NCBI GenBank assembly: GCA_013791785.1
Contig: VMTD01000047.1
Location: forward strand, 1,704 to 65,703
DNA length: 64,000 nt
Direction: 5' to 3'
From: Methanobacteriota archaeon
GTDB taxonomy: Archaea > Thermoplasmatota > Thermoplasmata > SG8-5
Below, piece after piece: positions 14,385-44,885 of this stretch (its first letter is position 1; every line of letters starts with the position of its first letter). Both the position numbers and the translations under genes were made by a program. The notes beneath the pieces were generated by a model. It had not been told where the DNA came from. It made no database searches and was given only the letters and a program-made list of their open reading frames with translations.

Positions 14385-14905
14385 AACGAAACACATATTT
14401 TTGGCTCTCTTATTCTCTTGGTAAATGGACACAGGAAACGTGCCGTGAAATGATAGAACTCATGTATCACAGACTCGAATTGCCATTTCCGAGCAACAAA
14501 CTTGAAATCTATACCGACGGAAATGATGATTATACCTATGTTTTTCCAGAATATTATGCGAACACCTGTATCATTTACGGGCAGCTAATAAAAATCAAGA
14601 AAGGAGGTCGTCTGGTTAAAAAGATAAAACGACCGATATTTGGAGATCCACGACTGGAGGATATAGAAACAACCGAAATAGAGAATATGAATGGGATAAT
14701 GAGAGAGCGTCTTGGGCGGTTGGTTCGAAAAACTAAGTGTTTCAGCAAGGACATACAGATGCAATGGTGTGCCCTTCAGTTGTTTCAATTTCATTGGAAT
14801 TTCATGAATAGATTTCGGAGAGGAGCAACACCAGCGATGTTGGAAGGGCTGGCTGACGCGCCGTGGACATGGGAGAATTTTTTAACGACTCATTATGCGG
14901 TGTAA
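14294..14905 (+). CDS. insB: IS1-type transposase catalytic ORF (InsB-like), reached by a programmed -1 frameshift at gtgaaaaaaaac (~14303..14314)
   Basis: ORF is in the -1 frame relative to InsA and overlaps it by 91 nt; the A7 run precedes a DAWVYASIK... continuation typical of IS1 InsAB fusions. Confidence 0.65.
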   Translation: MVICEKKQKKVEPGSPDSHEEGDAWVYASIKRNTYFWLSYSLGKWTQETCREMIELMYHRLELPFPSNKLEIYTDGNDDYTYVFPEYYANTCIIYGQLIKIKKGGRLVKKIKRPIFGDPRLEDIETTEIENMNGIMRERLGRLVRKTKCFSKDIQMQWCALQLFQFHWNFMNRFRRGATPAMLEGLADAPWTWENFLTTHYAV

Positions 14906-14986: not shown

Positions 14987-16392
14987 GTGGTAAGTATGCT
15001 TACATTGAAACAGACAATTTCACATGTGCTCATAGGGCAAAAGGGTGGGCCGAAAAGAATTCAGATCATTGAACTGATTAAGGTACGACCATACAATATC
15101 AACCAGCTTGCAGAGATTATGAAATTAAACTATAGAACAGTGAAACATCACATGGAAACCCTCTTGAGAAATGGTTTTGTTATCTCCTCAAAAAGCAGCG
15201 GTTACGGGGAGGTGTTTTTCTTGTCCCCTCTGCTTGAGGATAATTTCGAGCTATTCGAAGATATTATTAAAAAAGCAAACATTACCTCATCACATACCTT
15301 CTTCCAGAACGTGATAGAACAGACAGATACGGCTGTTATTCTCATAGATAAAGATGGAGAGACCTTCTTCTGGAATGCTGCCGCTGAAAAACTTTCGGTT
15401 ACAAAGTAACGGAAGTGATGGGAAAGAGCATCCAGATTTTTCATTATTCGGAACATCTGGAGAGCATAGTAAAAACAGCCATGCAGGGTAAGAAATCCAC
15501 GGCCTTCGATACAATCGCCAAACACAAGTCTGGAGAAATTTTTGATATAAATGCTAGAATTGACCCTATCAGGGATACGGAAGGTTCGATAATCGGATTC
15601 TCCATACTCGCCCAAGACATCACCGACCAGAAAAAAGCAGAAAGGGCATTACGAAGTTCGGAAGAAAGATTCCAGGAGCTTTTCAAGAACACGTTAATCG
15701 GTATCTACCAGACAACCTCCGAGGGCCAAATTCTCCTGGCAAACCCGGCGCTCGTCCGTATGTTAGGATTCTCATCCTTAGCAGAACTCTCCAAACGAAA
15801 CCTGGAGAAGGAGGGATTTGCCGAGAGTGTTTCACGTTCTGACTTCAAGAAACGCATAGAACGTAATGGACAGGTCGCTGGGTTCGAAACCTCTTGGACC
15901 AAGAAGGATGGTTCCATTCTTCACGTCCGTGAAAACGCCAAAGCGGTCCAGGATGGTAAAGGTAATATTGCGTTCTATTGTGGAACCGTTGAAGATCTCT
16001 CTCAGCAAAAGAAAATTCATGAAGATCTACACGAATCGAAGATAATGTTCGATACGCTCGTGAGCATCCTCCCCGAGGCCGTGATGATGACGGATATCGA
16101 AGGAAAAATCATATATTCGTCGCAACAGGCGCTTGAAATGTATGGACACTCAAGCGAGAAACAGATGCTGGGGAAAAATATTATTGACTTTGTTACACCC
16201 GAAGATTACAGAAAGGCTACGAAATTTATGAATCGAACTCTATCTGAGGGTATTGTAAATGAGATAAAATGCAAGTCGTTGAGGAAAGACGGCTCAAGCT
16301 TCCTGGCCGAACTGAGTGCCTCGGTAATTCGGAACAGCGAAGGGAACCCGAAAGCCATCATCGTGACGATAAAGGAATGCAGTACCCGATGA
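14987..16392 (+). pseudogene. winged-HTH + three PAS-domain sensor regulator, split into two ORFs (14987..15409, 15415..16392) by a frameshift in an A5 run (~15387..15391)
   Basis: reading ttcggttacaaagtaacggaagtgatgggaaag in the downstream frame gives ...AAEK(L/T)FGYKVTEVMGKSIQIF, a continuous PAS core; the two ORFs are adjacent and on the same strand. Confidence 0.6.
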
Positions 16393-23950: not shown

Positions 23951-25090
23951 GTGATGTATATGAAAAGAACGACAATAGGAAACAAAAGATATCTTCCGGT
24001 GTTTTTCACCATGGCATTAATGCTAGCAGGCATGAGCGGATTAGTGAACGCGGCAGATGTGGCAACAAGCACGGATACGGCTGGCGGTCTGCAGGTTCAA
24101 GCAGACAATGTCGCTCCTGCGATAACGGGTTTTGAGATTGTGAATGCGGGTTATACTACAATATTAGATGCCCAGGTTGACGTTAATACGGAAATTACCG
24201 TAAATGTGACCATAGAGGACAACAACGGCTGGGACGATGTGGACACCATTCAGGTCATGTGCTGGTATGATGGTGGAAGCGAAGGATATTTCTCTGGTCA
24301 GACAACGGGTCATAATTACAGGGTATTGCTCTATTATGACAACACGGCTGCCGGAGGAAACGGGCAAACTGTTCCGACAACAGGAAACATGGATGCAAAA
24401 TATTCAACAACTGTTGACCATTCCACGGTAACAGATGGCACACATGCAGTAACTGAGGTCACGGCAAATCAGAAATACAAACTGACATGGAAGTTTACTC
24501 CCAGCTACCAGTTCAAGCAGGCAGACATACCTGCGGTTGCTGATGGAGTGGCATTTGCCAATGCCAACTCATGGAATGTGATGGTCAACGCTACGGATGC
24601 AGCTGCGACCACGAGCCAGAAGGATAGCGGTTCCGATGCTTACGAGTTCGGAATATACAAGTACACATATATTTCCAGTGCAAGCAATACATGGAACGTC
24701 GGAACTGTGGCACCAAACGCCAACTCTGATGCTACAGCGGCCAGTGTTACCACCAGGTCGAACGACGACATGGACCTAACCGTTTGGATAAATGGCGACC
24801 TGACCTGCGCAAGCCCCAGCGACACGATACCCACAAGCGGCTCTTATGTGAAAATCCTGGCTGCTGCAAGCGCAGCGGATGACATAGCCGGTGACCTGAC
24901 TTACACTGCGAACCTGGAGGCAGGCGAGAAAACAATCCTCGCCAATACTGGATACGGTGATCACAGCGCCTATATGGCGAGCAACAGTGCGCTGACAACG
25001 AGCGTGAACTTCAACATCGCAGTGCCCTATGGTACCTTGCCAGGGACATACACTGCTGTATTGACGTTCCAGGTTACTCAGGTAGCATAA
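23951..25090 (+). CDS. secreted Thr/Ala/Asn-rich surface protein, candidate major structural subunit of a surface layer or fibre
   Basis: signal peptide ending LVNA; low-complexity beta-rich composition; TATA tttttatatc ~50 nt upstream; strong terminator downstream. Confidence 0.65.
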   Translation: MMYMKRTTIGNKRYLPVFFTMALMLAGMSGLVNAADVATSTDTAGGLQVQADNVAPAITGFEIVNAGYTTILDAQVDVNTEITVNVTIEDNNGWDDVDTIQVMCWYDGGSEGYFSGQTTGHNYRVLLYYDNTAAGGNGQTVPTTGNMDAKYSTTVDHSTVTDGTHAVTEVTANQKYKLTWKFTPSYQFKQADIPAVADGVAFANANSWNVMVNATDAAATTSQKDSGSDAYEFGIYKYTYISSASNTWNVGTVAPNANSDATAASVTTRSNDDMDLTVWINGDLTCASPSDTIPTSGSYVKILAAASAADDIAGDLTYTANLEAGEKTILANTGYGDHSAYMASNSALTTSVNFNIAVPYGTLPGTYTAVLTFQVTQVA

Positions 25091-25107
25091 GAAAAACAAT
25101 CGAAAAT

Positions 25108-25150
25108 GGAGGAGTTTACTCCTCCTCCTTTTCCCTTTTCTTTCATTTTT
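25108..25150 (+). terminator. intrinsic terminator (ggaggagtttactcctcc hairpin + T-rich tract)
   Basis: perfect 7-bp stem with a 4-nt loop followed by ttttcccttttctttcatttttt. Confidence 0.6.
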
Positions 25151-25197
25151 TCAATTATCACATTTGATAATATTAACGATAGATATTATTCTCATAA

Positions 25198-26496
25198 ATG
25201 ATTTTTACAGGACAGGTAATAATCATGGCTAGAAAAAAATCAATATTGATATTGTGTACTATCATGCTAATCGCATTTTCTTTCCCATTATCCCAAATGA
25301 GTACAGCAACCGATGGAATCGAGAATGTGCAACTTCATATGCCAGTGGAATCTATTTTTTTCAATGACGCAAATCAAATGGTGATGATTACCGGTTTCTG
25401 GCACATATTGGAATTTGACGTTCCTTCTGCAATGGATGCATCTATGGAACTCACGAAAGGAATAGATAGGTATGAATGGACATACAATGAAGGAGCATGG
25501 AACGAGTTAGAACATAACTTGTTCATAGACCAGACGAAGTGTTCATTCAACGGGGAAAGGATATTGTTTTGGATAGCTGTTGACCAATCTGCCATACCTG
25601 GTATTTGGCATCTTGCCGTAAACGCAGGCGAACTGAAAAGTGAACAAGATATTGAATTACGGGAAAGAACAGGGGGTGTGGGATTTTCCACGGCGGATTT
25701 CCTCATCGCAGTACCTCCATATACCCAGATGCAAGTGGAGACTGCAGACACGGGGCAATATGCCAGAGTCCACAATGAGGATGTCGTACCGGTAAATGTG
25801 GATTTTTTCATTGATAATGATAATTGTATAATGATTCCGGGTGAACGTACGCTATCCCCGCTCTCAATGGGGGAGTACTCCCTTGTCTATTCCAGTAACC
25901 CTCTAACTTCCCAAAGACAGGAATTTGGGGGTGAGGTTCTGATTACATACAAATATGTTGGCCCGAGCATTGGGACCGCCCAGTTAATTCCCTCTTACAA
26001 CTATCCATTTGATATCATCATCTTTGTGGGAGACCCTGACCTCGAATTTGTGGAGGCCGATGAATACACTGTACAGTATGTAACCAGCGTCCGAATGGCT
26101 TCCAACGAGACCAGAACCTTCCCGTTGATATTAGACGGCCAGGGGGATATCGACCTTGACATAAATGGGATTGGCTGCACGGTTTCATCGATAGAATTGA
26201 ATGGTGTGGAGGTAGATATGCCGTACCATCTGGAACTGGCTGGTGACAGGTCCGAAACCTTCAACATAATGGTTGAACCAATAATAACCAGCGGCAATGC
26301 TTCTCTTGTGTACCAGATAAACGGTGACCAATACACCACCGTTATTGAGATTGACTCTACTGGCGAACTTCAGGAAAAAATAACAGAAAACTATAGTGGA
26401 TATCTGAACAAGGTTTTACCCCCGGCAGTAATTGGAGTTTTAATCGTTGGTATCCTCATGATGTTATACAAGAGGAGAAGGAGGGTGAAAAGCTGA
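25198..26496 (+). CDS. secreted surface protein with a C-terminal TM anchor + RRRR tail
   Basis: N-terminal signal peptide; C-terminal PPAVIGVLIVGILMMLYKRRRRVKS. Confidence 0.65.
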   Translation: MIFTGQVIIMARKKSILILCTIMLIAFSFPLSQMSTATDGIENVQLHMPVESIFFNDANQMVMITGFWHILEFDVPSAMDASMELTKGIDRYEWTYNEGAWNELEHNLFIDQTKCSFNGERILFWIAVDQSAIPGIWHLAVNAGELKSEQDIELRERTGGVGFSTADFLIAVPPYTQMQVETADTGQYARVHNEDVVPVNVDFFIDNDNCIMIPGERTLSPLSMGEYSLVYSSNPLTSQRQEFGGEVLITYKYVGPSIGTAQLIPSYNYPFDIIIFVGDPDLEFVEADEYTVQYVTSVRMASNETRTFPLILDGQGDIDLDINGIGCTVSSIELNGVEVDMPYHLELAGDRSETFNIMVEPIITSGNASLVYQINGDQYTTVIEIDSTGELQEKITENYSGYLNKVLPPAVIGVLIVGILMMLYKRRRRVKS

Positions 26497-26534
26497 GGTC
26501 TCCAGCTATTGTACTTGTATTCGTCGTAATACTG

Positions 26535-27089
26535 TTGGCAGGTACAACCAGCGTCATGGGGGACGATGGCGGCGTGCAGGTGGAAAATGTATATCCCACA
26601 TTCTCAAATCTGTCGGTGAGTGAAATTAACGGCAATACCCTGGTCACAATCAACGTTTCAGACTATAATTCATTTTGGGACATAGATAGAATATTCATAA
26701 ATGTGACAGATGGAAACGAAGGGGTCTTAAGCATTGCCTACTTTGCGAATAACACCCGTGATTCGCCAAACGGGCAGCTCAGGAACGTTATTGGAAACAA
26801 TCTGGTTTCAGAACTTTCTGGAATTAAACACAGCAATGAAAGCGAGGAATCGGAGAGTTGTTACCTTTTATTAGAAATATGCTTCACTCCTGTTGATGGA
26901 ACCTTCCTAAACGTGGTGGTATGGGATGTGGGTGGACTCTCTGCAACGTACACTGGGCAGTATGTATATCCCCCACTCGCCGGAAAGGCCAACATGAACA
27001 TAATAATCGGGGCGGTTGTGTTCTCTCTCATCCTAACGGTTTCGATTCAGATATTATTAAAACGGAGACACAAAAATGAGAATGTCTGA
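26535..27089 (+). CDS. secreted surface protein with a C-terminal TM anchor (TTG start)
   Basis: signal-like N-terminus; C-terminal NMNIIIGAVVFSLILTVSIQILLKRRHKNENV. Confidence 0.55.
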   Translation: MAGTTSVMGDDGGVQVENVYPTFSNLSVSEINGNTLVTINVSDYNSFWDIDRIFINVTDGNEGVLSIAYFANNTRDSPNGQLRNVIGNNLVSELSGIKHSNESEESESCYLLLEICFTPVDGTFLNVVVWDVGGLSATYTGQYVYPPLAGKANMNIIIGAVVFSLILTVSIQILLKRRHKNENV

Positions 27090-27675
27090 GAATATTCTCA
27101 ATCGAAGTATTCTGAACACCGTGTTACAGTCGTTCTGGCTATTTCTCTCAATCCTCCTCCTGTTTATATTAATTCTCCTAATATATGTTCCCGGTCTTAG
27201 TGCCCCGGCTGTTCTATTGTCCATGTCCCCCGATCATAGCGGCACAAATCAACCAGGCAGTATTTTTTTTGCTCTCTGTTTAGTTGCAACTATCACAGCC
27301 CTGCACTTTTTGGAGAATGACAAAGCAATTAAGCTGTCTATCATACTATCATTCATGATAATGATCATACTCGGAAACAATCTATTCAACACCAGCGTTC
27401 CGGTCCCCCTTCATTTTTATGGGCTCTTTTTTGCTGTGGCCTTGATGATTATTTTTGATGCGTTTATTGTATCAGAAATCATTGCTACACCATCAGATAC
27501 CAAAAGGAAAATTCCCATGTCGTCCGATTTATCCGAGCGGATTAGCGATTACCTCACAGAATCAAATACGGACGATAATTTGATGAGATATCTTGACAGC
27601 CTTGAAGGAATCCTTATTGAAAGCGATTTAGAGTTTGAATTAGAACGGATTATTCAATCCTACAATTCTCCTTAG
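27076..27675 (+). CDS. integral membrane protein (199 aa), last gene of the surface-protein operon
   Basis: four or five hydrophobic helices; overlaps the upstream gene by 14 nt. Confidence 0.55.
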   Translation: MRMSENILNRSILNTVLQSFWLFLSILLLFILILLIYVPGLSAPAVLLSMSPDHSGTNQPGSIFFALCLVATITALHFLENDKAIKLSIILSFMIMIILGNNLFNTSVPVPLHFYGLFFAVALMIIFDAFIVSEIIATPSDTKRKIPMSSDLSERISDYLTESNTDDNLMRYLDSLEGILIESDLEFELERIIQSYNSP

Positions 27676-28377: not shown

Positions 28378-28790
28378 GGTTCCAGCCCAGGCCATCATGC
28401 CCCGTCTGAATTGGAACATTTTGATAGCTGGAGGGCGGGGTATTCGCCATCGAATTTTCCGAATTCGATGTCGTGTGACACGATTCTCGCCATCATCCTT
28501 TTAAAGCCCCGCCTGTGAGGGCGGGGTTAGCTTAAACCGGCACACAACCCGGCCCCGGGGCTACGGCACCGGCCAACTCCCAAAGCACCCTTTCTCAGGT
28601 TTAACGGTGATGGCGCGCGCCTCCAATCCCAAATCGTCAGCTAGCCTGGGTGCCGTTGTTACCCCGGCCTTACAGCCGGGGCTTTGAAAACAGGGTGCCA
28701 ACAAAATGCCTTTTTGCCAACAATATGCTGTCACCCATACAGCCAATAGATTGAAACCCCGCCCTCACAGGCGGGGCATGCTACTTACTT
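28378..28790. repeat. repeat family D, copy D1: GC-rich ~410-bp element with CCCCGCC-N5-GGCGGGG hairpins and an atcgaatt/aattcgat palindrome
   Basis: the 5' ~130 bp and 3' ~40 bp are shared with 44290..44885 (gggcggggtattcgccatcgaatt..ccgaattcgatgtcgtgtgac; aaaccc.gccctcacaggc.gggcatgct). Confidence 0.7.
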
Positions 28791-29705
28791 CCCGCGCTCC
28801 TCCGTCACGACGTTCATAACCTTCTGGAGAAACTCGTTCCAGGTTTCTTGTGAATTTCTGAACTTCTCTGCGGCTTCTGAAACAAGTCCTGCAATCTCGC
28901 TGTTAATTTCAGAAGAGATTTTGCTCCAATTCACCAGCACCTCTTCGGTTTTACCCGGCACGAACATTTGATGCATTCCACCATCTGCCATCATTTGATA
29001 TGCATTTTCATCCGTTGTTATCTCCGTCAGCATTGTATTCATCCGGTTGGTGAAATCACGCCACGAGGATTGTATCTCCTTGTATTCATCAATCGTTGCC
29101 TCGCTGTTTTCAGCGAAGAACGCAGTGGTGTACCCGGACACTTCTTCATACTCCTTCTTGAGATCTTCGATGAGTTCAACTTGCTCTTGTCCGCTGGATG
29201 ATGCAATTCTGCTAATGAGTTCTGCAATTGTCCTCCATTTTCCGAATAACTTCGTATACTTACCGGTGCTCTTTTGTGTATTCTTGATTAGGGAGGCGTT
29301 CATCTTCCCGTAATGCTCGTTCCAGACGCCGGAGATTTGTTTGTATTGTTCCTTTCCGAAATCAGGCAGGATGCTTTCCCATAGGTTATCATTGAACTTC
29401 GACCACATCTCCCAGATGTTCGTATTGAATTTCTGCTGCTCACCTATCACATCGTTCATGCGAGTCAGTAAACCGAATTGCTGTTCAGTGCACAGGTTCA
29501 TTATCTCCCGCATGCGGTCCTCCGAAGTCACTTCCACCTTTGAATTGCCTTCCTCATGGTCCCCAGTGGTCTTCCACACTTTGGGATTGCTCTCTTCGCT
29601 CTTTTTCGTCCCCGAGGTTTCCACCACTTTTGGAATGCTCTCTTCGCTCTTTTTCGTTTGTTTCATGTTCTTTTTTGTCATGTTCATCCTCTCCATATTG
29701 TTCAA
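28785..29705 (-). CDS. Trp-periodic helical repeat protein (306 aa), paralog of 29702..30580
   Basis: six or more repeats of h-x2-W-x2-(F/Y)-x3-M-N-x-x-(I/L) every ~25-35 aa; N-terminal KKSEES.PKV repeats; translationally coupled to the upstream paralog. Confidence 0.65.
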   Translation of the reverse strand: MNNMERMNMTKKNMKQTKKSEESIPKVVETSGTKKSEESNPKVWKTTGDHEEGNSKVEVTSEDRMREIMNLCTEQQFGLLTRMNDVIGEQQKFNTNIWEMWSKFNDNLWESILPDFGKEQYKQISGVWNEHYGKMNASLIKNTQKSTGKYTKLFGKWRTIAELISRIASSSGQEQVELIEDLKKEYEEVSGYTTAFFAENSEATIDEYKEIQSSWRDFTNRMNTMLTEITTDENAYQMMADGGMHQMFVPGKTEEVLVNWSKISSEINSEIAGLVSEAAEKFRNSQETWNEFLQKVMNVVTEERGK

Positions 29706-30580
29706 TTCAACTTTTTCTCCAACTCCTCCACTTTTTTCTTCAGTTCCGAGATCTCATTGTGCAATGCGTGAGCACTCGGGAACCGGAACATCATGAGGTT
29801 TTTCTGGATGGCCCCCGTCCTTTCAAAATATGTTTGATAAAGGCTCTCAATATCGGTACCGAAATCCTTTGCCAAACTGGTAAACCATCCGTTCATCTTC
29901 TTGGTTTCGTTTATCCAAGTGGCATAGATGTCCTTGTAATGCGTTTTGTCGTCCTTGAAGAAACTTGTCATTGTTTCTCCGAATTTTTCGGACATGGATG
30001 ACCAGTGTGCGGAGAGTTCGTTGAGTCCGATTCCGTTTTGATTGGTTAAAGGAACCATAAGACTGTTCATCTTCTCGATGAAATCGCCCCACAGGTCAAT
30101 CATTTTTTGATGGTCATCATTACCTTTAACCATCAGTTTGTTTATATTGGCGTTCATATCGTTCGTAAAATCAAACCATGCTGTGTGAAGATCCGATACC
30201 GTGTCCTTTTCCGGTTTGCCACTTTTCAAAATGTTCTCCATTGTGTTCTTCGAGTACTCGCCATACATTTTCATCATTCTTTCTGCATTAGTCGAATTCT
30301 CGGAAACTATATTGTTCAGCCTGGCGCCAATCTTGTTGTTGTAGTTCTTCCAGACATTGAAAAGTTCTTTGTAATTGGATTGTTCCTCATTCGATGTTGG
30401 ATTTATTCTTGTCTCTAGACTCTTCGAAAAATCCACCCAGCCATTATAGAGTTTCTCGCATTCGGCATGGTTTTCCTCCAGGGCCGTGGTGATTTGATTC
30501 TCCAAAAGTTTGGAGTAATCTGTCCATTCGTTAAATATGCCCATAGTACTTGCTTTTTCCTCTTTTTCTGGTTTTACCAT
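29702..30580 (-). CDS. Trp-periodic helical repeat protein (292 aa) with a C-terminal coiled coil
   Basis: repeats FNEWTDYSKLLEN / YNGWVDFSKSLET / FNVWKNYNNKIGA / HTAWFDFTNDMNA / IDLWGDFIEKMNS / SAHWSSMSEKFGE / YATWINETKKMNG. Confidence 0.65.
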   Translation of the reverse strand: MVKPEKEEKASTMGIFNEWTDYSKLLENQITTALEENHAECEKLYNGWVDFSKSLETRINPTSNEEQSNYKELFNVWKNYNNKIGARLNNIVSENSTNAERMMKMYGEYSKNTMENILKSGKPEKDTVSDLHTAWFDFTNDMNANINKLMVKGNDDHQKMIDLWGDFIEKMNSLMVPLTNQNGIGLNELSAHWSSMSEKFGETMTSFFKDDKTHYKDIYATWINETKKMNGWFTSLAKDFGTDIESLYQTYFERTGAIQKNLMMFRFPSAHALHNEISELKKKVEELEKKLN

Positions 30581-30961
30581 ATTTTTACCTCCCTTATTTT
30601 ATTCTGGAATTGATGATTTGACTAAACTTAGATTCCCCCATTGATGTTCAACTCTTTTAATCGTAAATGTCCTGACCATATTAACTAACTTTTTCAAAAT
30701 TGAGTACAGATGATGTACACATCTTTTACACATGTTCAAAATTCAAAATGCATTGTACGCATAGAAAACCATCATGCACCAGCTCTCGGATGCTGCTTTC
30801 CCGAGGATGTTGAAAAAACCTACGACAGGAGCTTCGAAAAGTTCGCTGTACATATGCCGAGAAAGCCCAGCCCTGGGGGGCTGAGATGAATCGGCATAAG
30901 CAGTAAACTTCCAGTCCTGGCAACAAACGCCAGCCACTTTAGGGGCTGGTAGTTTACGTAA

Positions 30962-32973: not shown

Positions 32974-33468
32974 ATGATAAATCATGATAACATCGCTAAC
33001 TTAGAAAATATAACAGATGCTGTATTAAACAGATACAATTATGAAAAACACTCTTTGATATCAATATTGCTCGATATTCAGACAAATTTCAATTATTTAC
33101 CAAAAGAAGCTATGATTATGGTTGCAGAAGAATTGAACATACGAGTCATTGATGTGTATTCCGTTGCCACATTTTACACGGTCTTCAGCTTGAAACCAAG
33201 AGGGAAATACATAATCAATGTATGCGTAGGTACAGCCTGCCATGTGAGGGGAGGACGCAGGATAGTTGATAAAATTCAAAAAGAACTGAATATCGATGTT
33301 GGTGAAACAACAGAAGATATGCAATTCACCCTCGAAACAGTCCGATGCCTCGGCGCATGTGCTCTGGGTCCTGTTATGGTAATTAATGGAGAATATTATG
33401 GTCAGTTGAGCACCAAAAAAGCAAATACAATACTACAATCATATAAAGTACAGGAGGCGGCGACATGA
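32974..33468 (+). CDS. NuoE/HoxE-like 2Fe-2S thioredoxin-fold subunit
   Basis: CVGTACHVRGG ... CLGACALGP four-Cys motif; RBS aagggggc upstream. Confidence 0.85.
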   Translation: MINHDNIANLENITDAVLNRYNYEKHSLISILLDIQTNFNYLPKEAMIMVAEELNIRVIDVYSVATFYTVFSLKPRGKYIINVCVGTACHVRGGRRIVDKIQKELNIDVGETTEDMQFTLETVRCLGACALGPVMVINGEYYGQLSTKKANTILQSYKVQEAAT

Positions 33469-33881
33469 TACATCTAAAACTCAAGTGCCACCATTGTGGA
33501 GAAAGCCTGATGGACCCAGATTTCGAGATTGACGACCATCCCAGTGTGAGAATTATTGTTGCATCTAATGGAGAAAAAGGAATATTACGCTTGAGCTCAC
33601 TCTATGGAAGTCACAAAAAAGATTCTGAATTAGATGTCCAAGAGGGAGAAATTGTTCGAATATTTTGTCCACATTGCAATGTCGATATGAAGAGTAGCAG
33701 GTTTTGTTATGAGTGCAAGGCACCCATGATCACATTTGAATCTCTTCTGGGTGGATATATTCGAGTATGCTCACGATGGGGTTGCAAGAAACAACTTGCA
33801 GAGTTTGAGAATTTGGAAACAGAGCTTAGGGCATTTCATGCGAAATATTCTCTCTCTCCTCAAGGGAGGGGGGAAAAATGA
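33465..33881 (+). CDS. double zinc-ribbon (4x CxxC) small protein translationally coupled between the hoxE-like and hoxF-like genes
   Basis: CHHCGE...CPHCNV...CYECKAP...CSRWGC; ATGA overlaps at both ends. Confidence 0.6.
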   Translation: MIHLKLKCHHCGESLMDPDFEIDDHPSVRIIVASNGEKGILRLSSLYGSHKKDSELDVQEGEIVRIFCPHCNVDMKSSRFCYECKAPMITFESLLGGYIRVCSRWGCKKQLAEFENLETELRAFHAKYSLSPQGRGEK

Positions 33882-36800
33882 CAGCAGAATTCAAAAATAA
33901 TGATGATATAAATAAATTAAGAAACATAATCAATAAGAAAAAAGATTCAAACAAGACATTTATTACAATGTGCTCTGGAACGGGATGCTTGGCTTCCGGC
34001 AGTGGAAAAGTTACTGAAGCCTTTAGAAATTCGTTTAAAAAAATGAATCTTGAAAGCAAGGTCGAGGTTAAAACAACTGGCTGTCATGGTTTTTGTGAAC
34101 ATGGCCCCCTTATCGTGATCCGCCCTTCTGGTATATTTTATCATAAAGTAACACCAGAGGATGTGGATGAAATCATTTCGGAAACTATTCTCAAATCCAA
34201 AGTAGTCGACCGTTTGTTATATGTCAATCCATCAACAGGGGAAAAAATCATTTATGAAAAAGACGTTCCATTTTATAATAAACAAATGAGAATCCTTTTT
34301 GGTAAAAATGGCATCCTTGACCCCACTAGTATCGAAGAATATATCGGTCTGGGTGGTTATTCCGCTTCAGAAAAGGTATTTTCCCGAATGTCATCAGATG
34401 AGATTATTGACGAAGTAAAAAAATCAGGCCTTAGAGGTAGAGGTGGTGCAGGATTTCCAACTGGTTTTAAATGGGATTTCTGTAAAAAAGCAAAGGGCGA
34501 TATGAAATACATTGTATGCAATGCTGATGAAGGAGACCCTGGCGCATACATGAATAGAAGCTTGTTGGAAGGAAATCCACACAGCGTTCTGGAAGGAATG
34601 TTAATCGGTGCATTTGCCATTGGTGCATCCGAAGGCATCATTTACATTAGACATGAATATCCGTTAGCAGTAAAAACAATTGAAAACGCCATGGATCAGA
34701 TGCGAAAATATGGCTTGCTTGGTAATAATATATTAGGATCAGGTTTTAATTTTGACATAAGGATTGTTCCTGGCGCCGGTGCATTTGTTTGTGGTGAAGA
34801 AACAGCACTTATCGCATCAATAGAGGGGAAAAAAGGAGAGCCCAGACAGAGGCCACCTTTCCCAGCTCAAAAAGGAATCTTTGGCAAACCCACGAACATA
34901 AACAATGTTGAAACATGGGCAAATATACCATTAATCATCAACAATGGTGCAGAGTGGTTCACTAATATTGGAGTTGAGGGAGCCAATGGCACAAAAATAT
35001 TTTCTTTGGTTGGAAAAATAAACAACACAGGCTTGGTAGAAGTTCCATTGGGTACCACAATAAGGGAAATGGTATATGATATTGGTGGTGGAATACCCAA
35101 GGGCAAAAAGTTCAAAGCAATACAAACCGGAGGTCCTTCTGGAGGGTGCATACCTGAGAACTTGCTTTCAACACCAATTGATTATGTAAAACTAGCTCAA
35201 GCCGGTTCAATAATGGGTTCCGGCGGTCTTGTAGTAATGGATGAAGATACCTGCATGGTAGATGTGGCAAAATATTTCCTTGGATTTCTTCAGGAGGAAT
35301 CCTGTGGCAAGTGCCTCACATGTAGAGAAGGAATAGAGAGGTTATTGGAAATTGTAACTGATATTACTGAAGGCAAAGGCAAAATGAGTGATATCAATTT
35401 ATTGGAAGAGCTTGGCAATGTTGTTAAAGATGCTTCAATGTGCGGACTTGGCCAAACAGCCCCCAATTCAGTACTTTCGACATTGAGATACTTTATGGAT
35501 GAATATGAACAGCACATCAAATACAAAAGATGCCCTGCTGTAGTCTGTAAGGAAATTATATCCTCGCCATGCCAACATGTTTGTCCGATAGATACAGAAG
35601 CACCTTTGTACATCTCTCTGATAGCCGAAGGACGGTATGAAGAGGCCTTCAATGTTATTATGAAAGATAATCCTCTCCCATCAGTCTGTGCCAGAGTATG
35701 TAGCCATCCCTGCGAGACAAAATGCCAGGCAGGCAAATTCAGCGATCCTATTTCTATCAGAGGACTAAAGAGATTTGTAACTGATTATGCCCAGAAGAAT
35801 GATTTGAAATACTTGCCTGAAAAACAAGAAACAAAGAAAGAAAAGATTGCGATCATCGGTTCAGGACCCGCTGGATTGATTGCGGGCTACTACCTTGGAA
35901 TGAATGGATACCAGACTACGATTTTTGAATCCTTGCCAGTTCATGGTGGCGCATTGTCAGTATGCATTCCCGAGTACAGATTGCCCCAGGCTATACTTGA
36001 ACATGACATTAAAAATATTACAAACATGGGTGTGGAAATAAAATACAATGTTACGGTAGGCAAGGACATTTCATTTGAAGAACTGCGAAAAACCTACCAG
36101 GCAATATTTATTGCGACAGGCGCACGCAAGTCCATTAAATTGGGCATACCCAATGAGGATGCTGATGGGGTACTTTATTCCATGGACTTCCTAAGAGATA
36201 TGGCTCTCGGAAAAAAGATCAATGTCGGTTCACGAATAGGCATTATTGGGGGCGGAAATGCTGCGGTGGATGCAGCCAGGATGGCCAGCCGTATTTCAAG
36301 TATCGAAGAGGCCTCGTTCAATGCTATGATAGATACAGCCGGAATGGCCAGCCGCCTTACGGATTTTGAAGAAGCCACATTGATATACCGGAGAACCAAA
36401 TCCGAAATGCCTGCCTTCGAAGAAGAAATAAAAGCATGCCTGGATGAACGTGTCAAGATGCAGTTCCTTACTGCACCTAAAAGAATATTGGTCAAGGATG
36501 GAAAAATCACTGGATTAGAATGCCTAAAAATGGAATTGGGAGAACGGGACGATTCTGGCAGAAAGAGACCCATCCCCATCGAGGGCTCTGAATTCATAAT
36601 TGAATTGGACACATTGATTATCGCAATCGGTGAACGGCCGGACCTTTCCTTTTTAGATGAAATAGAAGGATTCGAGGTCAATAAGGGAGACACTATCAAA
36701 GTTGACACAGAACTCTACACAACAGGGATAGATGGTGTTTTTGCAGGTGGTGACGTGGTAACTGGCCCGAATACAGTGATTGAGGCCATGGGATCTGGAA

Positions 36801-37099
36801 AGGTAGTAGCTGGATTGATAGATAAATACCTTAAAGGAGAGCCTGTAGAACGAAAATACGAAGTTACCAGACCATCAATGTTCGTGAAACCTGTTGAATT
36901 AACCGAAGAAGAAGTAGCAGAGGCAAGGCGGCCCCTAATGCGATGCACTCCCATAGAAAACAGAACATGCTCCCTTGACGAAGTGGATTTGGGACTATCT
37001 GAGGAAAATGCGATAAAAGAGGCTAGACGTTGCTTGAGATGCGATCTGGAAACTGAGGAAGGAAAGAAACAATTTGAACCGGCAGAGGAAGTGGCATAA
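33878..37099 (+). CDS. NuoF/HoxF-like (NADH/FMN/4Fe-4S) fused to a GltD/NfnB-like FAD/NAD(P)H domain (1073 aa)
   Basis: N-terminal 2Fe-2S Trx-like (CSGTGC..CHGFCEHGP); GLRGRGGAGFPTGFKWDF; ESCGKCLTCREG; ferredoxin Cys clusters; then GSGPAGLIAGYYL... and GGGNAAVDAAR dinucleotide motifs. Confidence 0.85.
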   Translation: MTAEFKNNDDINKLRNIINKKKDSNKTFITMCSGTGCLASGSGKVTEAFRNSFKKMNLESKVEVKTTGCHGFCEHGPLIVIRPSGIFYHKVTPEDVDEIISETILKSKVVDRLLYVNPSTGEKIIYEKDVPFYNKQMRILFGKNGILDPTSIEEYIGLGGYSASEKVFSRMSSDEIIDEVKKSGLRGRGGAGFPTGFKWDFCKKAKGDMKYIVCNADEGDPGAYMNRSLLEGNPHSVLEGMLIGAFAIGASEGIIYIRHEYPLAVKTIENAMDQMRKYGLLGNNILGSGFNFDIRIVPGAGAFVCGEETALIASIEGKKGEPRQRPPFPAQKGIFGKPTNINNVETWANIPLIINNGAEWFTNIGVEGANGTKIFSLVGKINNTGLVEVPLGTTIREMVYDIGGGIPKGKKFKAIQTGGPSGGCIPENLLSTPIDYVKLAQAGSIMGSGGLVVMDEDTCMVDVAKYFLGFLQEESCGKCLTCREGIERLLEIVTDITEGKGKMSDINLLEELGNVVKDASMCGLGQTAPNSVLSTLRYFMDEYEQHIKYKRCPAVVCKEIISSPCQHVCPIDTEAPLYISLIAEGRYEEAFNVIMKDNPLPSVCARVCSHPCETKCQAGKFSDPISIRGLKRFVTDYAQKNDLKYLPEKQETKKEKIAIIGSGPAGLIAGYYLGMNGYQTTIFESLPVHGGALSVCIPEYRLPQAILEHDIKNITNMGVEIKYNVTVGKDISFEELRKTYQAIFIATGARKSIKLGIPNEDADGVLYSMDFLRDMALGKKINVGSRIGIIGGGNAAVDAARMASRISSIEEASFNAMIDTAGMASRLTDFEEATLIYRRTKSEMPAFEEEIKACLDERVKMQFLTAPKRILVKDGKITGLECLKMELGERDDSGRKRPIPIEGSEFIIELDTLIIAIGERPDLSFLDEIEGFEVNKGDTIKVDTELYTTGIDGVFAGGDVVTGPNTVIEAMGSGKVVAGLIDKYLKGEPVERKYEVTRPSMFVKPVELTEEEVAEARRPLMRCTPIENRTCSLDEVDLGLSEENAIKEARRCLRCDLETEEGKKQFEPAEEVA

Positions 37100-37100
37100 T

Positions 37101-37805
37101 ATGGCATCATTCAGAATTGACGGTTTAGATGTTGAAGCAGAAGAAGGATGGACCATACTGGAAACAGCCAAATTCTATGGGATAGATATACCTACTCTCT
37201 GCCATGATGATGGCCTTACCTCCTATGGGGCTTGCAGATTATGCATAGTTGAAGTGGGCGAAGGAAAAAATGCAAAATTGACCACCTCTTGCACAACGCC
37301 GGCTCAAGAAGGAATCAGAGTCAGAACCCACTCCAGAAGAGTAATGAATGCCAGAAAGATGATTATAGAATTGATGATTGCGCGTGCCTCGGGTTCAAAG
37401 ACACTTCAGGATTTGGCAGTAGAATACGGTGTACAGAGTGTTAGATTTAAACTCAAGCATGATGATTGTATTCTCTGCGGTCTTTGTGTGCGCATGTGCA
37501 AGGAGCAGATGATGTCCGGTGCCATTGATTTTGTCGGTCGTGGCAAGGATAGGCGTATTACGACGGCCTTCGACGAAAAATCGGTAGATTGCCGTTTTTG
37601 CGGCGGTTGCATGTATATTTGCCCGATATGTGAACTCAGATGTCAAGGCCCGGATCCACCCGGGGCCATCTGTGGTAGTTGTCTAAATATGGCACCAACA
37701 TGTCTGGATCATTATGATGATGCGCAATGTTTCATGGCTGAAGATGGCTGTGGAACTTGTGTGAGAGAACCAGCAAAAGAAAAAATAGCAGAAAAGGAGG
37801 AATAA
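37101..37805 (+). CDS. HoxU/NuoG-N-terminal-like 2Fe-2S + 4Fe-4S electron-transfer subunit (track start 37074 is over-extended)
   Basis: Fer2_4-type N-terminus (DIPTLCHDD..GACRLCIVEV..TSC) followed by CILCGLCVRMC and CRFCGGCMYICP. Confidence 0.75.
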   Translation: MASFRIDGLDVEAEEGWTILETAKFYGIDIPTLCHDDGLTSYGACRLCIVEVGEGKNAKLTTSCTTPAQEGIRVRTHSRRVMNARKMIIELMIARASGSKTLQDLAVEYGVQSVRFKLKHDDCILCGLCVRMCKEQMMSGAIDFVGRGKDRRITTAFDEKSVDCRFCGGCMYICPICELRCQGPDPPGAICGSCLNMAPTCLDHYDDAQCFMAEDGCGTCVREPAKEKIAEKEE

Positions 37806-37807
37806 AA

Positions 37808-39391
37808 ATGTCGTTTACAAAAACAAACGCGAGTGCAGCCACCCTATCAAAGAACAGAACACCGGGAACAATAACACATTCCAGCGGGATGTGCGCAACA
37901 TGTGTTGATGGATGTATAGGAATGTGTGAGATAGGAAAATCGGCCTATAGGGGACATGAGGTCATATATCCTCAGCCATTTGGAATAATCACCTCGGCAA
38001 ACGAAAAGGACTACCCTGTAGATATGTCTCATTTCACCATACTTGGCGGCGTCGAAAATCCAAAGGGAATCGAAGCTGATAGTGACAAGGCTCTGTTCTC
38101 CAACGTGAATGTTGAACAAAGAATTGGAAAAGATAAAAAAATCAAGGTCAGAATGCCCATGGTCATTCCCGGGCTTGGTTCAACAGCTATTGCAAAGAAT
38201 AACTGGGAAGGATTGGCAATCGGCGCGGCACTGGCTGGCATCCCCCTTACAATTGGTGAAAATGTTTGCGGAATGGATCCTGAATCTGTAATTGTTAATG
38301 GAAAAGTACAACATTCACCGGAACTCGAATGGCGCGTGAACACCTATAAAAAATGGCAGCAAGACGGGTATGGCGCAATAATTGTTCAGGCCAATGTGGA
38401 AGATACTGCACTGGGAGTGCATGAGTATGCCATTTCAAAATTGGACGTTGATGCAGTCGAACTCAAATGGGGCCAGGGTGCAAAGAACATTGGCGGCGAA
38501 GTGAAAATCTCCAATCTGAAAAAAGCACAAATGCTGAAAGAAAGAGGATATGTAGTAATACCCGATCCAACAGACCCGCATGTTATTGAATCATTTGAAA
38601 AGGGTAATTTCAAGGAGTTTGAAAGACACTCCAGAGTTGGTATGGTGGACGGGGAGGCTTTCATAAACAGAGTTAAAGAACTTAGATCACTAGGAGCAAA
38701 GCATGTTTTCCTGAAAACAGGTGCATACAGGCCACTCGCTTTGGCAACGGCCCTTAAATTAGCATCAAAGGCCGGGATAGATATGCTAACCGTCGATGCC
38801 GCAGGCGGCGGAACCGGTATGAGCCCCTGGAGAATGATGAATGAGTGGGGTATTCCTGAAGTGGAACTCCATTCCATGCTTTACAAATATGTCGATATCC
38901 TTGCCAAGAAGGGCGAGTATATCCCAGATATTGTTGTTGCAGGCGGCTTTACCTTTGAAGACCATATCTTTAAAGGCTTATCAATGGGCGCACCTTATGT
39001 CAAACTGATAGGCATGGCAAGGGGACCTCTCGCAGCCGCTATGGTCGGGAAGACCCTCGGAAAACGCATCAATGAAAATGATATGCCTGTTTATGTAGGC
39101 CGATTTGGAAGTTCGAAAGAAGATGTATTTGTCACGGCTTCCGAAGTCAAACAAAAACTTGGAGAAGAGAAGTTCAAGGAACTTCCAACAGGTGCATTGG
39201 GCCTTTACACATACGTAGAAAGGCTTAATCAAGGGCTTAGGCAAATAATGGCTGGCAGTCGTAAATTCAGCTTAGAACATTTGACACGCGATGATCTTGC
39301 CGCATTGACAAAGGAAGCATCTGAAATTTCTGGAATCCCTTGGGTCATGGACATCGATAAAGATGAGGTCGAAAAATTACTTAACGAATAA
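37808..39391 (+). CDS. glutamate-synthase large-subunit FMN-binding domain homolog (GltB domain 2 / PF01645-like) with an N-terminal Cys cluster (track start 37757 is over-extended)
   Basis: CATCVDGCIGMCE; GltB central-domain-like segments (GAALAGIPLTIGENVCG, VELKWGQGAKNIGGE, DAAGGGTGMSPW, VAGGFTFEDHIFKGLSMGA). Confidence 0.7.
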   Translation: MSFTKTNASAATLSKNRTPGTITHSSGMCATCVDGCIGMCEIGKSAYRGHEVIYPQPFGIITSANEKDYPVDMSHFTILGGVENPKGIEADSDKALFSNVNVEQRIGKDKKIKVRMPMVIPGLGSTAIAKNNWEGLAIGAALAGIPLTIGENVCGMDPESVIVNGKVQHSPELEWRVNTYKKWQQDGYGAIIVQANVEDTALGVHEYAISKLDVDAVELKWGQGAKNIGGEVKISNLKKAQMLKERGYVVIPDPTDPHVIESFEKGNFKEFERHSRVGMVDGEAFINRVKELRSLGAKHVFLKTGAYRPLALATALKLASKAGIDMLTVDAAGGGTGMSPWRMMNEWGIPEVELHSMLYKYVDILAKKGEYIPDIVVAGGFTFEDHIFKGLSMGAPYVKLIGMARGPLAAAMVGKTLGKRINENDMPVYVGRFGSSKEDVFVTASEVKQKLGEEKFKELPTGALGLYTYVERLNQGLRQIMAGSRKFSLEHLTRDDLAALTKEASEISGIPWVMDIDKDEVEKLLNE

Positions 39392-44289: not shown

Positions 44290-44885
44290 CTGATTCCGGC
44301 CTTCCCGATTCTGTAGCTGCTTCCAGCCAACCCCATCATGCCCCGTCTGAATCGCTCCTCATGTTGTCTGGAGGGCGGGGTATTCGCCATCGAATTTTTC
44401 GAATTCGATGTCGTGTGACCGATTCCCGTATCATCCTTTGGAAACCCCGCCTGACATTCTATCACATTTTATTAGGGCGGGGAGGAGTTTAAACCGGCGT
44501 TCAACCCGGCCATGTAGCTGCTTCCGATTAACTGCCCGAACCCCCCTACCTAGCTGAGCTACGGCGGGGCACCGGCCAACCCGCCACAGGGCCAGTCCCA
44601 GCCTTTTCGGCTACGAAGCTGGTTCCGGCCTTCCCGGTTCCTGTAACCGGTTCCAACGTTCGTTTCTAACACGCTACGCGAAGGATGAACGAATCGCTCC
44701 TTTGCAAGATCCGCGTAATGGGTTTCACCCGGCATGCGATGGCCGGGCGAGTACCTGGCACCCCGCCCTTACGGGCGAGGATTGACAATTGAAGATTGCA
44801 TAATGCATCATTTGTTTGGAAGAATATCACTTGATGCCAGATTAGTATAAAACCCTGCCCTCACAGGCAGGGCATGCTGCTAACA
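44290..44885. repeat. repeat family D, copy D2 (GC-rich ~600 bp, variable middle, ggttcc(g/a)(g/a)cc short direct repeats)
   Basis: conserved ends shared with 28378..28790; internal hairpins ccccgcc..ggcgggg. Confidence 0.7.

What the first reader, a model, noticed from the sequence alone, without database searches (positions are those of the whole stretch)
28785..30580. Two tandem, translationally coupled paralogs made of Trp-periodic helical repeats (W-x2-F/Y-x3-M-N)
Both proteins consist almost entirely of ~25-35-aa repeats centred on a conserved Trp, followed three residues later by Phe/Tyr and by an (M/L)N pair. One ends in a coiled coil. The other begins with KKSEES.PKV repeats. They lack signal peptides. 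The pattern suggests amphipathic helical bundles that could bind a surface, a granule or a filament (phasin-like or scaffold-like). I cannot assign them to a known family from sequence alone.
Basis: seen in the sequence. Interest (0 to 1): 0.55.

Follow-up and report, generated by a model that had tools for sequence, protein, structure and literature searches.

The report
PhaE-like Trp-repeat proteins, likely bioplastic-granule coat
These two adjacent archaeal genes encode long helical proteins built from a 29-residue tryptophan repeat that is also present in the PhaE subunit of the polyester (PHA) synthase. Their relatives always lie beside PHA-synthase genes, so they are most likely unannotated coat or accessory proteins of PHA storage granules in uncultured Thermoplasmata.

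Summary
g1 (29702-30580, minus strand, 292 aa) consists of nine in-register repeats of exactly 29 residues, with Trp at 19/48/77/135/164/193/222 (autocorrelation z=11). g2 is a degenerate paralog (profile-profile E=1e-14). Its true start is the ATG at 29681, 20 nt after the g1 stop, so the two genes do not overlap. No Pfam or NCBIfam model matches either protein. Context decides the reading. In every related locus fetched, all from Thermoplasmata/Methanomassiliicoccales MAGs, a family member lies in or beside a phaE-phaC-enoyl-CoA hydratase-phaB cluster. The window's own MAG carries that operon, with two further paralogs, on another contig. The g1 family is a remote homolog of the local PhaE proteins (hhalign E=5e-20). 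The experimentally characterised Haloferax mediterranei PhaE has the same 29-residue Trp period (W9/38/67/96). AlphaFold2 predicts a long amphipathic four-helix bundle. Best reading: PhaE-derived, phasin-like PHA-granule proteins (about 0.55 for that role, about 0.8 for any PHA-linked role). I classify this as a new variant of a known kind, of moderate interest. Nothing here has been tested experimentally.

The parts
29702..30580 (-). g1: 292-aa protein (stop codon included). It belongs to the PhaE-like Trp-repeat family.
   Evidence: ORF. Orthologs are 62-84% identical. dN/dS is 0.13-0.26. There is no Pfam or NCBIfam hit. hhalign against the local PhaE family gives E=4.9e-20.
29771..30553 (-). 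g1 residues 10-270: nine in-register 29-residue repeats. Hydrophobic columns are 3, 6, 7, 10 (Trp), 13 (Phe/Tyr), 17, 21 and 24.
   Evidence: W19, W48, W77 and W222 are invariant and W135 is nearly invariant across 12 family members.
29705..29770 (-). g1 C-terminal helix, residues 271-292 (HALHNEISELKKKVEELEKKLN). It is coiled-coil-like and aligns colinearly with the C-terminal GLPTK...coil motif of PhaE.
   Evidence: AlphaFold2 predicts helix 270-291. L287 and E288 are invariant across the 12-member family alignment A2 and K289 across the 8-member A1.
30587..30593 (-). Shine-Dalgarno-like GGGAGGT, 6 nt upstream of the g1 ATG.
   Evidence: Sequence read. Conserved in the L003 and L017 orthologs.
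28785..29681 (-). g2: 298-aa protein (stop codon included), a degenerate paralog of g1. It is identical to NCBI MAG protein KKH41_07565.
   Evidence: P0004, 100% identity. Start site. hhalign against the g1 family gives E=1.2e-14.
29688..29694 (-). Invariant GGAGAGG ribosome-binding site, 6 nt upstream of the g2 ATG, inside the 20-nt g1-g2 spacer.
29526..29681 (-). g2 residues 1-52: Lys/Glu/Ser/Thr-rich tail, predicted disordered. It contains the 16-aa TKKSEES(I/N)PKV... units.
   Evidence: pLDDT below 35 for residues 1-50. Composition and net charge of +2. Copy number varies among orthologs.
29562..29657 (.). 48-nt tandem DNA duplication (83% identical) that encodes the N-terminal repeat of g2.
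   Evidence: repeat family D1.
28788..29525 (-). g2 residues 53-298: all-helical region with degenerate 29-aa Trp repeats (W120, W149, W207, W252, W281).
28755..28777 (.). Palindromic GC-rich hairpin (GCCCCGCC-TGTG-AGGGCGGGG) followed by T residues, 8 nt after the g2 stop. It is a likely 3' end signal. It is also one terminal inverted repeat of a MITE-like element spanning 28506-28777.
   Evidence: The same hairpin follows phaB in L003 and L017.

Best explanation
g1 and g2 are non-catalytic, PhaE-derived accessory proteins of polyhydroxyalkanoate (PHA) storage granules. In function they resemble phasins.

Proposed mechanism:
- Each 29-residue repeat spans eight helical turns. This places Trp, Phe/Tyr and six aliphatic positions on one straight hydrophobic face.
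- In solution, pairs of repeats form helices of about 56 residues, which pack into an elongated antiparallel four-helix bundle.
- At the hydrophobic polyester surface, or on the PhaE-PhaC synthase complex, the bundle is proposed to open or dock through this aromatic face, as exchangeable apolipoproteins and phasins do.
- The C-terminal coiled coil of g1 would mediate oligomerisation or pairing with PhaE-type partners.
- The disordered, charged N-terminal tail of g2 would project into the cytoplasm and help keep granules apart.

Shown here: the repeat architecture, paralogy, remote homology to PhaE, the predicted helical and amphipathic character, and genomic linkage to PHA genes.

Inferred only: granule binding, bundle opening, and the roles of the coiled coil and the tail.
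For: Genomic context:
- In L002, L003, L004-L007, L008-L011, L012-L014, L017, L019-L025 and L026, a g1-family gene lies within or next to phaE-phaC-ECH-phaB.
- All nine GTDB genome loci come from Thermoplasmata/Methanomassiliicoccales MAGs.
- The window's own MAG (locus tag prefix KKH41) carries an operon on another contig: g2-like 197 aa, g1-like 290 aa, PhaE 170 aa, PhaC, ECH, PhaB (L008).
- That PhaC passes the class III model TIGR01836 (367.6 bits against a cutoff of 365.3).
- In L003 and L017 the g1-g2 pair lies directly downstream of this operon.

Homology:
- The g1 family against the local PhaE family gives hhalign probability 99.3%, E=4.9e-20 over 255 colinear columns.
- All ten of those PhaE proteins match PF09712.
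- Of 73 proteins found with the g1 profile, 18 carry PF09712, and some carry weak Phasin, Phasin_2 or apolipoprotein matches.
- The 29-aa Trp period is shared with the 277-aa Thermoplasmata PhaEs and with Haloferax mediterranei PhaE (W9/38/67/96).

Structure and physical chemistry:
- AlphaFold2 predicts a four-helix bundle.
- The hydrophobic period is 3.64 residues, well above shuffles.
- The best PDB sequence match is apolipophorin-III, at E=0.002.

Evidence for a phasin-like role rather than being 'the' PhaE:
- A separate, bona fide PhaE always occupies the position immediately upstream of phaC.
- The genome has four paralogs for one PhaC.
- In g1 the conserved SPAF segment of PhaE is deleted, and the G of GLPT is not kept.
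- A gene immediately upstream of phaE-phaC is also where haloarchaeal phaP lies.
Against: - There is no experimental evidence of any kind: no proteomics, no localisation, no binding data.
- The window itself has no phaC within 64 kb.
- Neither protein reaches threshold for any phasin or PhaE model.
- There is no similarity to the only characterised archaeal phasin, Haloferax PhaP (hhalign probability 0.4%).
- At about 33 kDa, both proteins are larger than typical phasins.
- The g2 model has low confidence (pLDDT 55).
- Profile-profile scores between repetitive helical proteins can be inflated.
- Structural matches are generic helical bundles and carry no functional information.
- PHA accumulation has not been shown in any Thermoplasmata.
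Confidence: 0.55

Rival explanations
1. g1, and perhaps g2, are alternative or auxiliary PhaE-type subunits. They would bind PhaC directly and activate or tune the class III synthase (comparable to PhaE, PhaR or PhaM) rather than coat the granule.
For: - The homology to PhaE runs the full length of the protein and includes the C-terminal motif.
- The 29-aa Trp repeat is shared with functional PhaE proteins.
- In clusters whose PhaE is short (170-190 aa) and lacks the Trp repeats, separate repeat proteins lie just upstream. These could supply the missing N-terminal module in trans.
Against: - A distinct PhaE is always present next to phaC.
- g1 lacks the nearly invariant PhaE core positions, the SPAF segment and the Gly of GLPT.
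- g2 lacks the C-terminal motif altogether.
- In this genome the pair is unlinked from phaC and appears to be a separate transcription unit.
Confidence: 0.25
2. They are general cytoplasmic helical-repeat proteins, such as a scaffold, a cytoskeletal element or a stress protein. Their linkage to pha genes would then be historical rather than functional.
For: - In the window the pair lies away from any pha gene, between an Lpd-like oxidoreductase gene and a MITE-like element.
- Structural matches are generic bundles, including BAR-domain and pore-forming-toxin folds.
Against: - Linkage to phaC holds across subfamilies only about 20-25% identical to g1 and across several gene orders. Mere history is unlikely to preserve that.
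- The family was seen only in Thermoplasmata genomes carrying PHA clusters.
- It is homologous to PhaE.
Confidence: 0.1
3. They are GvpC-like gas-vesicle proteins, as the JGI name 'gas vesicle protein' for homolog P0003 suggests.
For: - One database name.
- GvpC proteins are also made of helical repeats of about 33 residues (general knowledge, not tested here).
Against: - No GvpA-like sequence was found in the window or in the related loci then held (L001-L025) (the GvpA query sequences were recalled from memory).
- P0003 itself lies between phaB and phaE-phaC.
- No gas-vesicle family appears in the Pfam matches.
Confidence: 0.01

Closest known systems
PhaE, the non-catalytic subunit of class III PHA synthase (Pfam PF09712, TIGR01834), for example Haloferax mediterranei PhaE
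   Same: - The N-terminal 29-residue Trp periodicity is the same: Haloferax PhaE has W9/38/67/96, and the 277-aa Thermoplasmata PhaEs have five units.
- The proteins are colinear by profile-profile alignment, including a C-terminal Pro-containing motif followed by a coiled coil.
- Both are encoded in pha clusters.
   Different: - g1 and g2 do not reach the PF09712 or TIGR01834 thresholds.
- g1 has nine repeats instead of four or five.
- g1 lacks the SPAF segment and the conserved Gly of GLPT.
- g2 lacks the C-terminal motif.
- Neither gene lies immediately upstream of phaC; a separate PhaE does.
Phasins: bacterial PhaP (PF09361, PF05597, PF09602) and haloarchaeal PhaP
   Same: - Predicted amphipathic, all-helical, acidic cytoplasmic proteins.
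- Encoded with pha genes. The position upstream of phaE-phaC matches that of haloarchaeal phaP.
- Several paralogs per genome.
   Different: - No significant sequence match to any phasin model.
- No similarity to Haloferax PhaP.
- About twice the usual phasin size.
- A regular 29-aa Trp repeat is not a known phasin feature, as far as I know.
Exchangeable apolipoproteins (apolipophorin-III, ApoA-I/E)
   Same: - An elongated bundle of amphipathic helices that could open on a hydrophobic surface.
- Weak sequence matches: 1EQ1 at E=0.002, and PF07464 at 1.2e-5 for homolog P0002.
   Different: - All scores are below family cutoffs.
- The repeat period differs (29 residues against 11/22).
- The organisms and cellular context differ.
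- The similarity is probably compositional or convergent.
PhaM / PhaF-type granule proteins with nucleic-acid-binding tails
   Same: - Modular design: a granule or synthase-binding helical part plus a charged, low-complexity tail (g2 residues 1-52).
- A distant subfamily carries an extra N-terminal domain of about 100 residues.
   Different: - The g2 tail is nearly neutral (net charge +2), not strongly basic.
- DNA binding was not tested.
- There is no sequence similarity.

Membership tests
PhaE (class III PHA synthase subunit E; PF09712 / TIGR01834) | Match to the family HMM at or above the curated cutoff | tested here: not met
   g1 and g2 have no PF09712 or TIGR01834 match even at E<=1. By contrast, the neighbouring PhaE proteins of related loci all match PF09712.
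PhaE (class III PHA synthase subunit E; PF09712 / TIGR01834) | Detectable homology to bona fide PhaE proteins | tested here: met
   hhalign of the g1 family against the Thermoplasmata PhaE family gives probability 99.3%, E=4.9e-20. The match to the single Haloferax PhaE sequence is weak (E=8.5e-4, probability 24%). The 29-aa Trp period is shared.
PhaE (class III PHA synthase subunit E; PF09712 / TIGR01834) | Gene immediately upstream of phaC and co-oriented with it | tested here: not met
   There is no phaC in the window. In related loci a different gene, of 170-311 aa and matching PF09712, occupies that position.
PhaE (class III PHA synthase subunit E; PF09712 / TIGR01834) | Conserved core (SPAF-type segment and the GLPT motif before the C-terminal coil) | tested here: not met
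   The SPAF segment falls in a gap in g1. GLPT corresponds to FRFPSA, so only the Pro is kept. g2 has neither element.
PhaE (class III PHA synthase subunit E; PF09712 / TIGR01834) | Required for PhaC activity | not testable with these tools
   This needs biochemistry or genetics.
Phasins (PF05597, PF09361, PF09602; haloarchaeal PhaP) | Sequence membership in a known phasin family | tested here: not met
   Nothing passes threshold. There are only sub-threshold matches in some relatives. hhalign against Haloferax PhaP gives probability 0.4%.
Phasins (PF05597, PF09361, PF09602; haloarchaeal PhaP) | Amphipathic alpha-helical protein without a signal peptide or transmembrane segment | tested here: met
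   AlphaFold2 models are all-helical. The hydrophobic period is 3.6 residues, above shuffles, and there is no hydrophobic stretch.
Phasins (PF05597, PF09361, PF09602; haloarchaeal PhaP) | Gene clustered with PHA synthesis genes | tested here: met
   This holds in all related loci and for the paralogs of the same MAG. It does not hold within the 64-kb window itself.
Phasins (PF05597, PF09361, PF09602; haloarchaeal PhaP) | Abundant protein bound to the PHA granule surface that affects granule number and size | not testable with these tools
   This needs granule proteomics, localisation and knockouts.
Apolipophorin-III / apolipoprotein A1/A4/E | HMM match at or above the cutoff | tested here: not met
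   g1 and g2 have no match. Homolog P0002 scores 25.9 bits against a cutoff of 36.3. The PDB entry 1EQ1 matches at E=0.002.
GvpC gas-vesicle protein | Association with gvpA and other gvp genes | tested here: not met
   tblastn with GvpA found nothing in the window or in the related loci then held (L001-L025).

The most novel reading that the evidence does not exclude
The 29-residue Trp repeat is a previously unrecognised polyester-binding or synthase-docking module. It would be ancestral to archaeal PhaE. In anaerobic Thermoplasmata (Methanomassiliicoccales relatives), duplication and repeat expansion would have turned it into a new family of stand-alone granule proteins with up to four paralogs per genome. 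In lineages where PhaE has lost its own repeats, these proteins could supply the module in trans. This reading would also imply that these uncultured archaea make PHA granules. I found no report of that.
Probability: 0.45. Interest if true: 0.65.

Novelty: new variant of a known kind. Interest (0 to 1): 0.5.

Why it matters
- It gives a testable function to an unannotated protein family. The family is rare: 105 cluster representatives among 1.84 billion proteins.
- It points to PHA storage in uncultured, probably anaerobic Thermoplasmata. A 2025 survey of cultured members found no phaC in that class.
- It exposes a regular 29-residue Trp repeat in the poorly understood N-terminal half of PhaE, including the experimentally studied Haloferax subunit. 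That suggests a concrete structural hypothesis: a straight aromatic stripe on a long helix. The hypothesis addresses how class III synthase partners and granule proteins meet the polymer.
- New phasin-type proteins are also of practical use as granule-display and PHA-binding tags.

Tried and rejected
- Pfam and NCBIfam scans of g1 and g2 returned only noise.
- The Foldseek afdb50 library was unavailable.
- Rfam found nothing in the window.
- I searched the window for phaC, phaE, ECH and phaB with tblastn and found none.
- The gas-vesicle idea is rejected.
- Similarity to Haloferax PhaP is rejected.
- I compared the upstream regions of the g1 orthologs and of the pha operons to look for a shared regulatory motif. 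Each set is conserved within itself, but I saw no convincing common motif, so co-regulation is not established.
- Cluster look-ups of distant family members returned only 'hypothetical protein' and no organism names.
- Several long proteins matched by the g1 profile appear to match through periodic Trp-rich helices. One example is P0096 (2065 aa), which looks like a phage tail tape-measure protein. One of the 73 scanned hits matched PF10145 (Phage-related minor tail protein), though the scan does not say which. I did not count these as family members.
- Literature searches found no description of PHA clusters or phasins in Thermoplasmata, and none of a Trp repeat in PhaE. The library does not cover subscription journals.
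Full report
**What is there**

The region holds two same-strand ORFs on the minus strand. g1 spans 29702-30580 and encodes 292 aa. It is preceded by a GGGAGGT ribosome-binding site.

The second ORF can be read from a TTG at 29705 that overlaps the g1 stop codon. That TTG is not the conserved start.
- Nine orthologous proteins begin at MTKK.
- The DNA junction in five orthologs keeps an invariant GGAGAGG, a 6-7 nt spacer, then ATG-ACA-AAA-AAG.
- The upstream in-frame extension is broken in L004.

g2 is therefore 28785-29681 (298 aa). It is identical to NCBI MAG protein KKH41_07565 and starts 20 nt after the g1 stop. The genes are tightly linked and probably co-transcribed, but they do not overlap. 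A GC-rich hairpin followed by T residues lies 8 nt after the g2 stop. Both genes evolve under purifying selection, with dN/dS 0.10-0.30.

**Repeats**

g1 is strikingly regular.
- Residues 10-270 form nine units of exactly 29 residues with no indel.
- Trp sits at 19, 48, 77, 135, 164, 193 and 222, with Tyr at the equivalent positions 106 and 251.
- BLOSUM autocorrelation peaks at lag 29 (z=11.2) and lag 58 (z=9.4). The 99th percentile of the shuffle maximum is 3.7.
- There are 21 Trp pairs at multiples of 29, against 0.85 expected.
- W-x2-[FY] is enriched (5 against 0.65 expected).
- Hydrophobic residues occupy columns 3, 6, 7, 10, 13, 17, 21 and 24 of the unit.

Because 29 residues equal eight helical turns (99.3 degrees per residue), these columns fall within an arc of about 125 degrees with Trp near its centre. 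This is arithmetic on the pattern. The result is a straight hydrophobic stripe, seen as a hydrophobicity period of 3.64 residues with power 21.4 against a 99th-percentile shuffle value of 8.2.

g2 is a degenerate copy.
- Its lag-29 signal alone is marginal (z=3.3-3.5).
- Its homology to g1 is clear (BLASTP E=6e-8; profile-profile E=1.2e-14).
- Its first 52 residues are a Lys/Glu/Ser/Thr-rich tail, predicted disordered and nearly neutral.
- The tail contains a 16-aa unit encoded by a 48-nt tandem DNA duplication. Copy number varies from 1 to 3 among orthologs.

Neither protein has a signal peptide or a membrane segment.

**Structure**

AlphaFold2 predicts the following for g1 (12-sequence alignment, pLDDT 74, pTM 0.61):
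- four helices of 48-56 residues, each spanning two repeats;
- a short fifth helix;
- a C-terminal helix at residues 270-291.

**Family and context**

No Pfam or NCBIfam model matches g1 or g2. The family is small, with 105 cluster representatives at E<=1e-3 among 1.84 billion proteins. Where sources name members, the name is 'hypothetical protein'. One member carries the JGI label 'gas vesicle protein'.

Genomic context is decisive.
- In L002 the g1 homolog lies between a short-chain reductase (phaB-like) and a 277-aa PhaE, followed by PhaC and an enoyl-CoA hydratase.
- In L003 and L017 the order is: 197-aa g2-like, 285/290-aa g1-like, 171-aa PhaE, PhaC, ECH, PhaB, then g1 and g2 directly downstream.
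- L004-L007, L012-L014 and L019-L025 show variations of the same cluster.
- A distant subfamily of about 400 aa lies in a PHA cluster too (L026; L022).
- All nine GTDB loci are from Thermoplasmata or Methanomassiliicoccales MAGs.

The window itself has no pha gene. However, the same MAG (locus tag prefix KKH41) carries the operon with two further paralogs on another contig (L008). Its PhaC passes the class III model TIGR01836 and shows the G-x-C-x-G-G lipase box (sequence).

Comparison with L003 suggests that a rearrangement separated the pair from the operon in this genome. The window holds an IS1-like remnant and a frameshifted copy of the PAS gene that flanks the operon in L003.

**Relationship to PhaE**

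- The g1 family aligns with the PhaE proteins of these clusters at hhalign probability 99.3%, E=4.9e-20, over 255 colinear columns. The alignment runs from the N-terminal W-x-D-Y-S repeats to the C-terminal Pro-containing motif and coil.
- All ten of those PhaE proteins match PF09712.
- Eighteen of the 73 proteins recovered with the g1 profile match it too.
- The 277-aa PhaEs carry five Trp at 29-residue spacing.
- The experimentally studied Haloferax mediterranei PhaE has its only four Trp at 9, 38, 67 and 96.

The repeat is therefore a PhaE feature. I found no paper that mentions it.

Several facts argue that g1 and g2 are not simply 'the' PhaE.
- A separate PhaE always lies next to phaC.
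- g1 lacks the SPAF segment and the Gly of GLPT, which are nearly invariant in PhaE.
- g2 lacks the C-terminal motif.
- There are four paralogs for one synthase.

In lineages whose PhaE is short (170-190 aa) and lacks repeats, separate repeat proteins lie just upstream.

**Interpretation**

The best-supported reading is that g1 and g2 are PhaE-derived, phasin-like accessory proteins of PHA granules. They would be elongated amphipathic bundles whose aromatic face binds the polyester or the synthase complex. The g1 coiled coil would mediate association, and the g2 charged tail would point outward.
- I put about 0.8 on a PHA-linked function.
- I put about 0.55 on a coat (phasin-like) role.
- The main rival is an auxiliary synthase subunit (about 0.25).
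- Weak, sub-threshold similarity to apolipophorin-III and apolipoproteins fits a surface-binding helix bundle, but it may be compositional.
- There is no similarity to the haloarchaeal phasin PhaP.
- The gas-vesicle label is unsupported.

**Novelty**

This is not a categorically new system. It is an unannotated, lineage-restricted variant of the PhaE/phasin theme. Two points are of wider interest: the 29-residue Trp repeat as a candidate polymer or synthase-binding module, and genomic evidence for PHA storage in uncultured Thermoplasmata. In the papers I could search, the archaeal groups discussed with PHA genes were haloarchaea, Thaumarchaeota, 'Ca. Methanoperedens' and Archaeoglobaceae. A 2025 screen found no phaC in cultured Thermoplasmata. 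All functional statements remain inference from sequence, predicted structure and gene neighbourhood.

Noticed in passing
L028:3411-3959 (Haloferax mediterranei pHM300 phaE): The four Trp of the characterised haloarchaeal PhaE lie at residues 9, 38, 67 and 96. This is an exact 29-residue period, identical to that of g1 and the 277-aa Thermoplasmata PhaEs. I found no paper describing it.
   Followed up: partly
window 28506-28777; also 44851-44873: A MITE-like element of 272 bp lies directly after g2. Its 23-nt terminal inverted repeats are perfect and are themselves palindromic hairpins (GCCCCGCCTGTGAGGGCGGGGTT). A third hairpin copy lies at 44851-44873. The same hairpin follows phaB in L003 and L017, so it may be a common terminator or REP-like element of this lineage.
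   Followed up: partly
window 14294-14905 and 15152-16386: An IS1-like transposase remnant lies next to a PAS-domain sensor gene that is split by a frameshift near 15390. The intact ortholog flanks the PHA operon in L003. This suggests a rearrangement that separated the operon from g1-g2 in this genome.
   Followed up: partly
L008, L009, L010, L011 (starts of the loci): Contigs from four independent assemblies all end about 250-300 nt upstream of the first gene of the PHA operon. This points to a repeated element at that site.
   Followed up: no
L001 1553-3330 compared with window 28785-30580: Divergence is uneven between neighbours. g1 is 62% identical to its L001 ortholog, while g2 is 87% identical (dS 0.79 against 0.23). 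This suggests recombination or replacement of one gene of the pair.
   Followed up: no
L022 9814-10986; L026 2483-3700; proteins P0045, P0052, P0063: A distant subfamily of about 400 aa carries an extra N-terminal region of about 100 aa, with a conserved LLKDEM..LA....EV...WTKD.IA motif. It looks like a HeH/SAP-type nucleic-acid-binding motif, but Pfam did not confirm this. These genes also lie in PHA clusters, which hints at a granule-nucleoid tether like PhaM or PhaF.
   Followed up: partly
L002 2538-3485 (P0003): The JGI annotation 'gas vesicle protein' for this homolog appears to be wrong. The gene lies between phaB and phaE-phaC, and no gvpA was found in any locus.
   Followed up: yes
L002 4392-5726 compared with L008 2302-3360: The PhaC of L002 (444 aa) carries a C-terminal helix-hairpin-helix extension and is 45-50% identical to haloarchaeal PhaC. 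The PhaC of the window's lineage (352 aa) lacks the extension. The clusters use a crotonase-type ECH, whereas the Haloferax mediterranei locus has a MaoC-family dehydratase.
   Followed up: partly
window 23951-27675: Four consecutive plus-strand ORFs (379, 432, 184 and 199 aa) have no Pfam match. At least the last two are conserved next to the pha region in L003 (67-77% identity). Their function is unknown.
   Followed up: no
window 32974-39391: A cluster resembling an electron-bifurcating or NADH-dependent oxidoreductase. It comprises a NuoE-like 2Fe-2S protein, a 1073-aa NuoF-GltD-type fusion, a 2Fe-2S/4Fe-4S protein and a protein with a glutamate-synthase domain, followed by glutamate dehydrogenase.
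   Followed up: no
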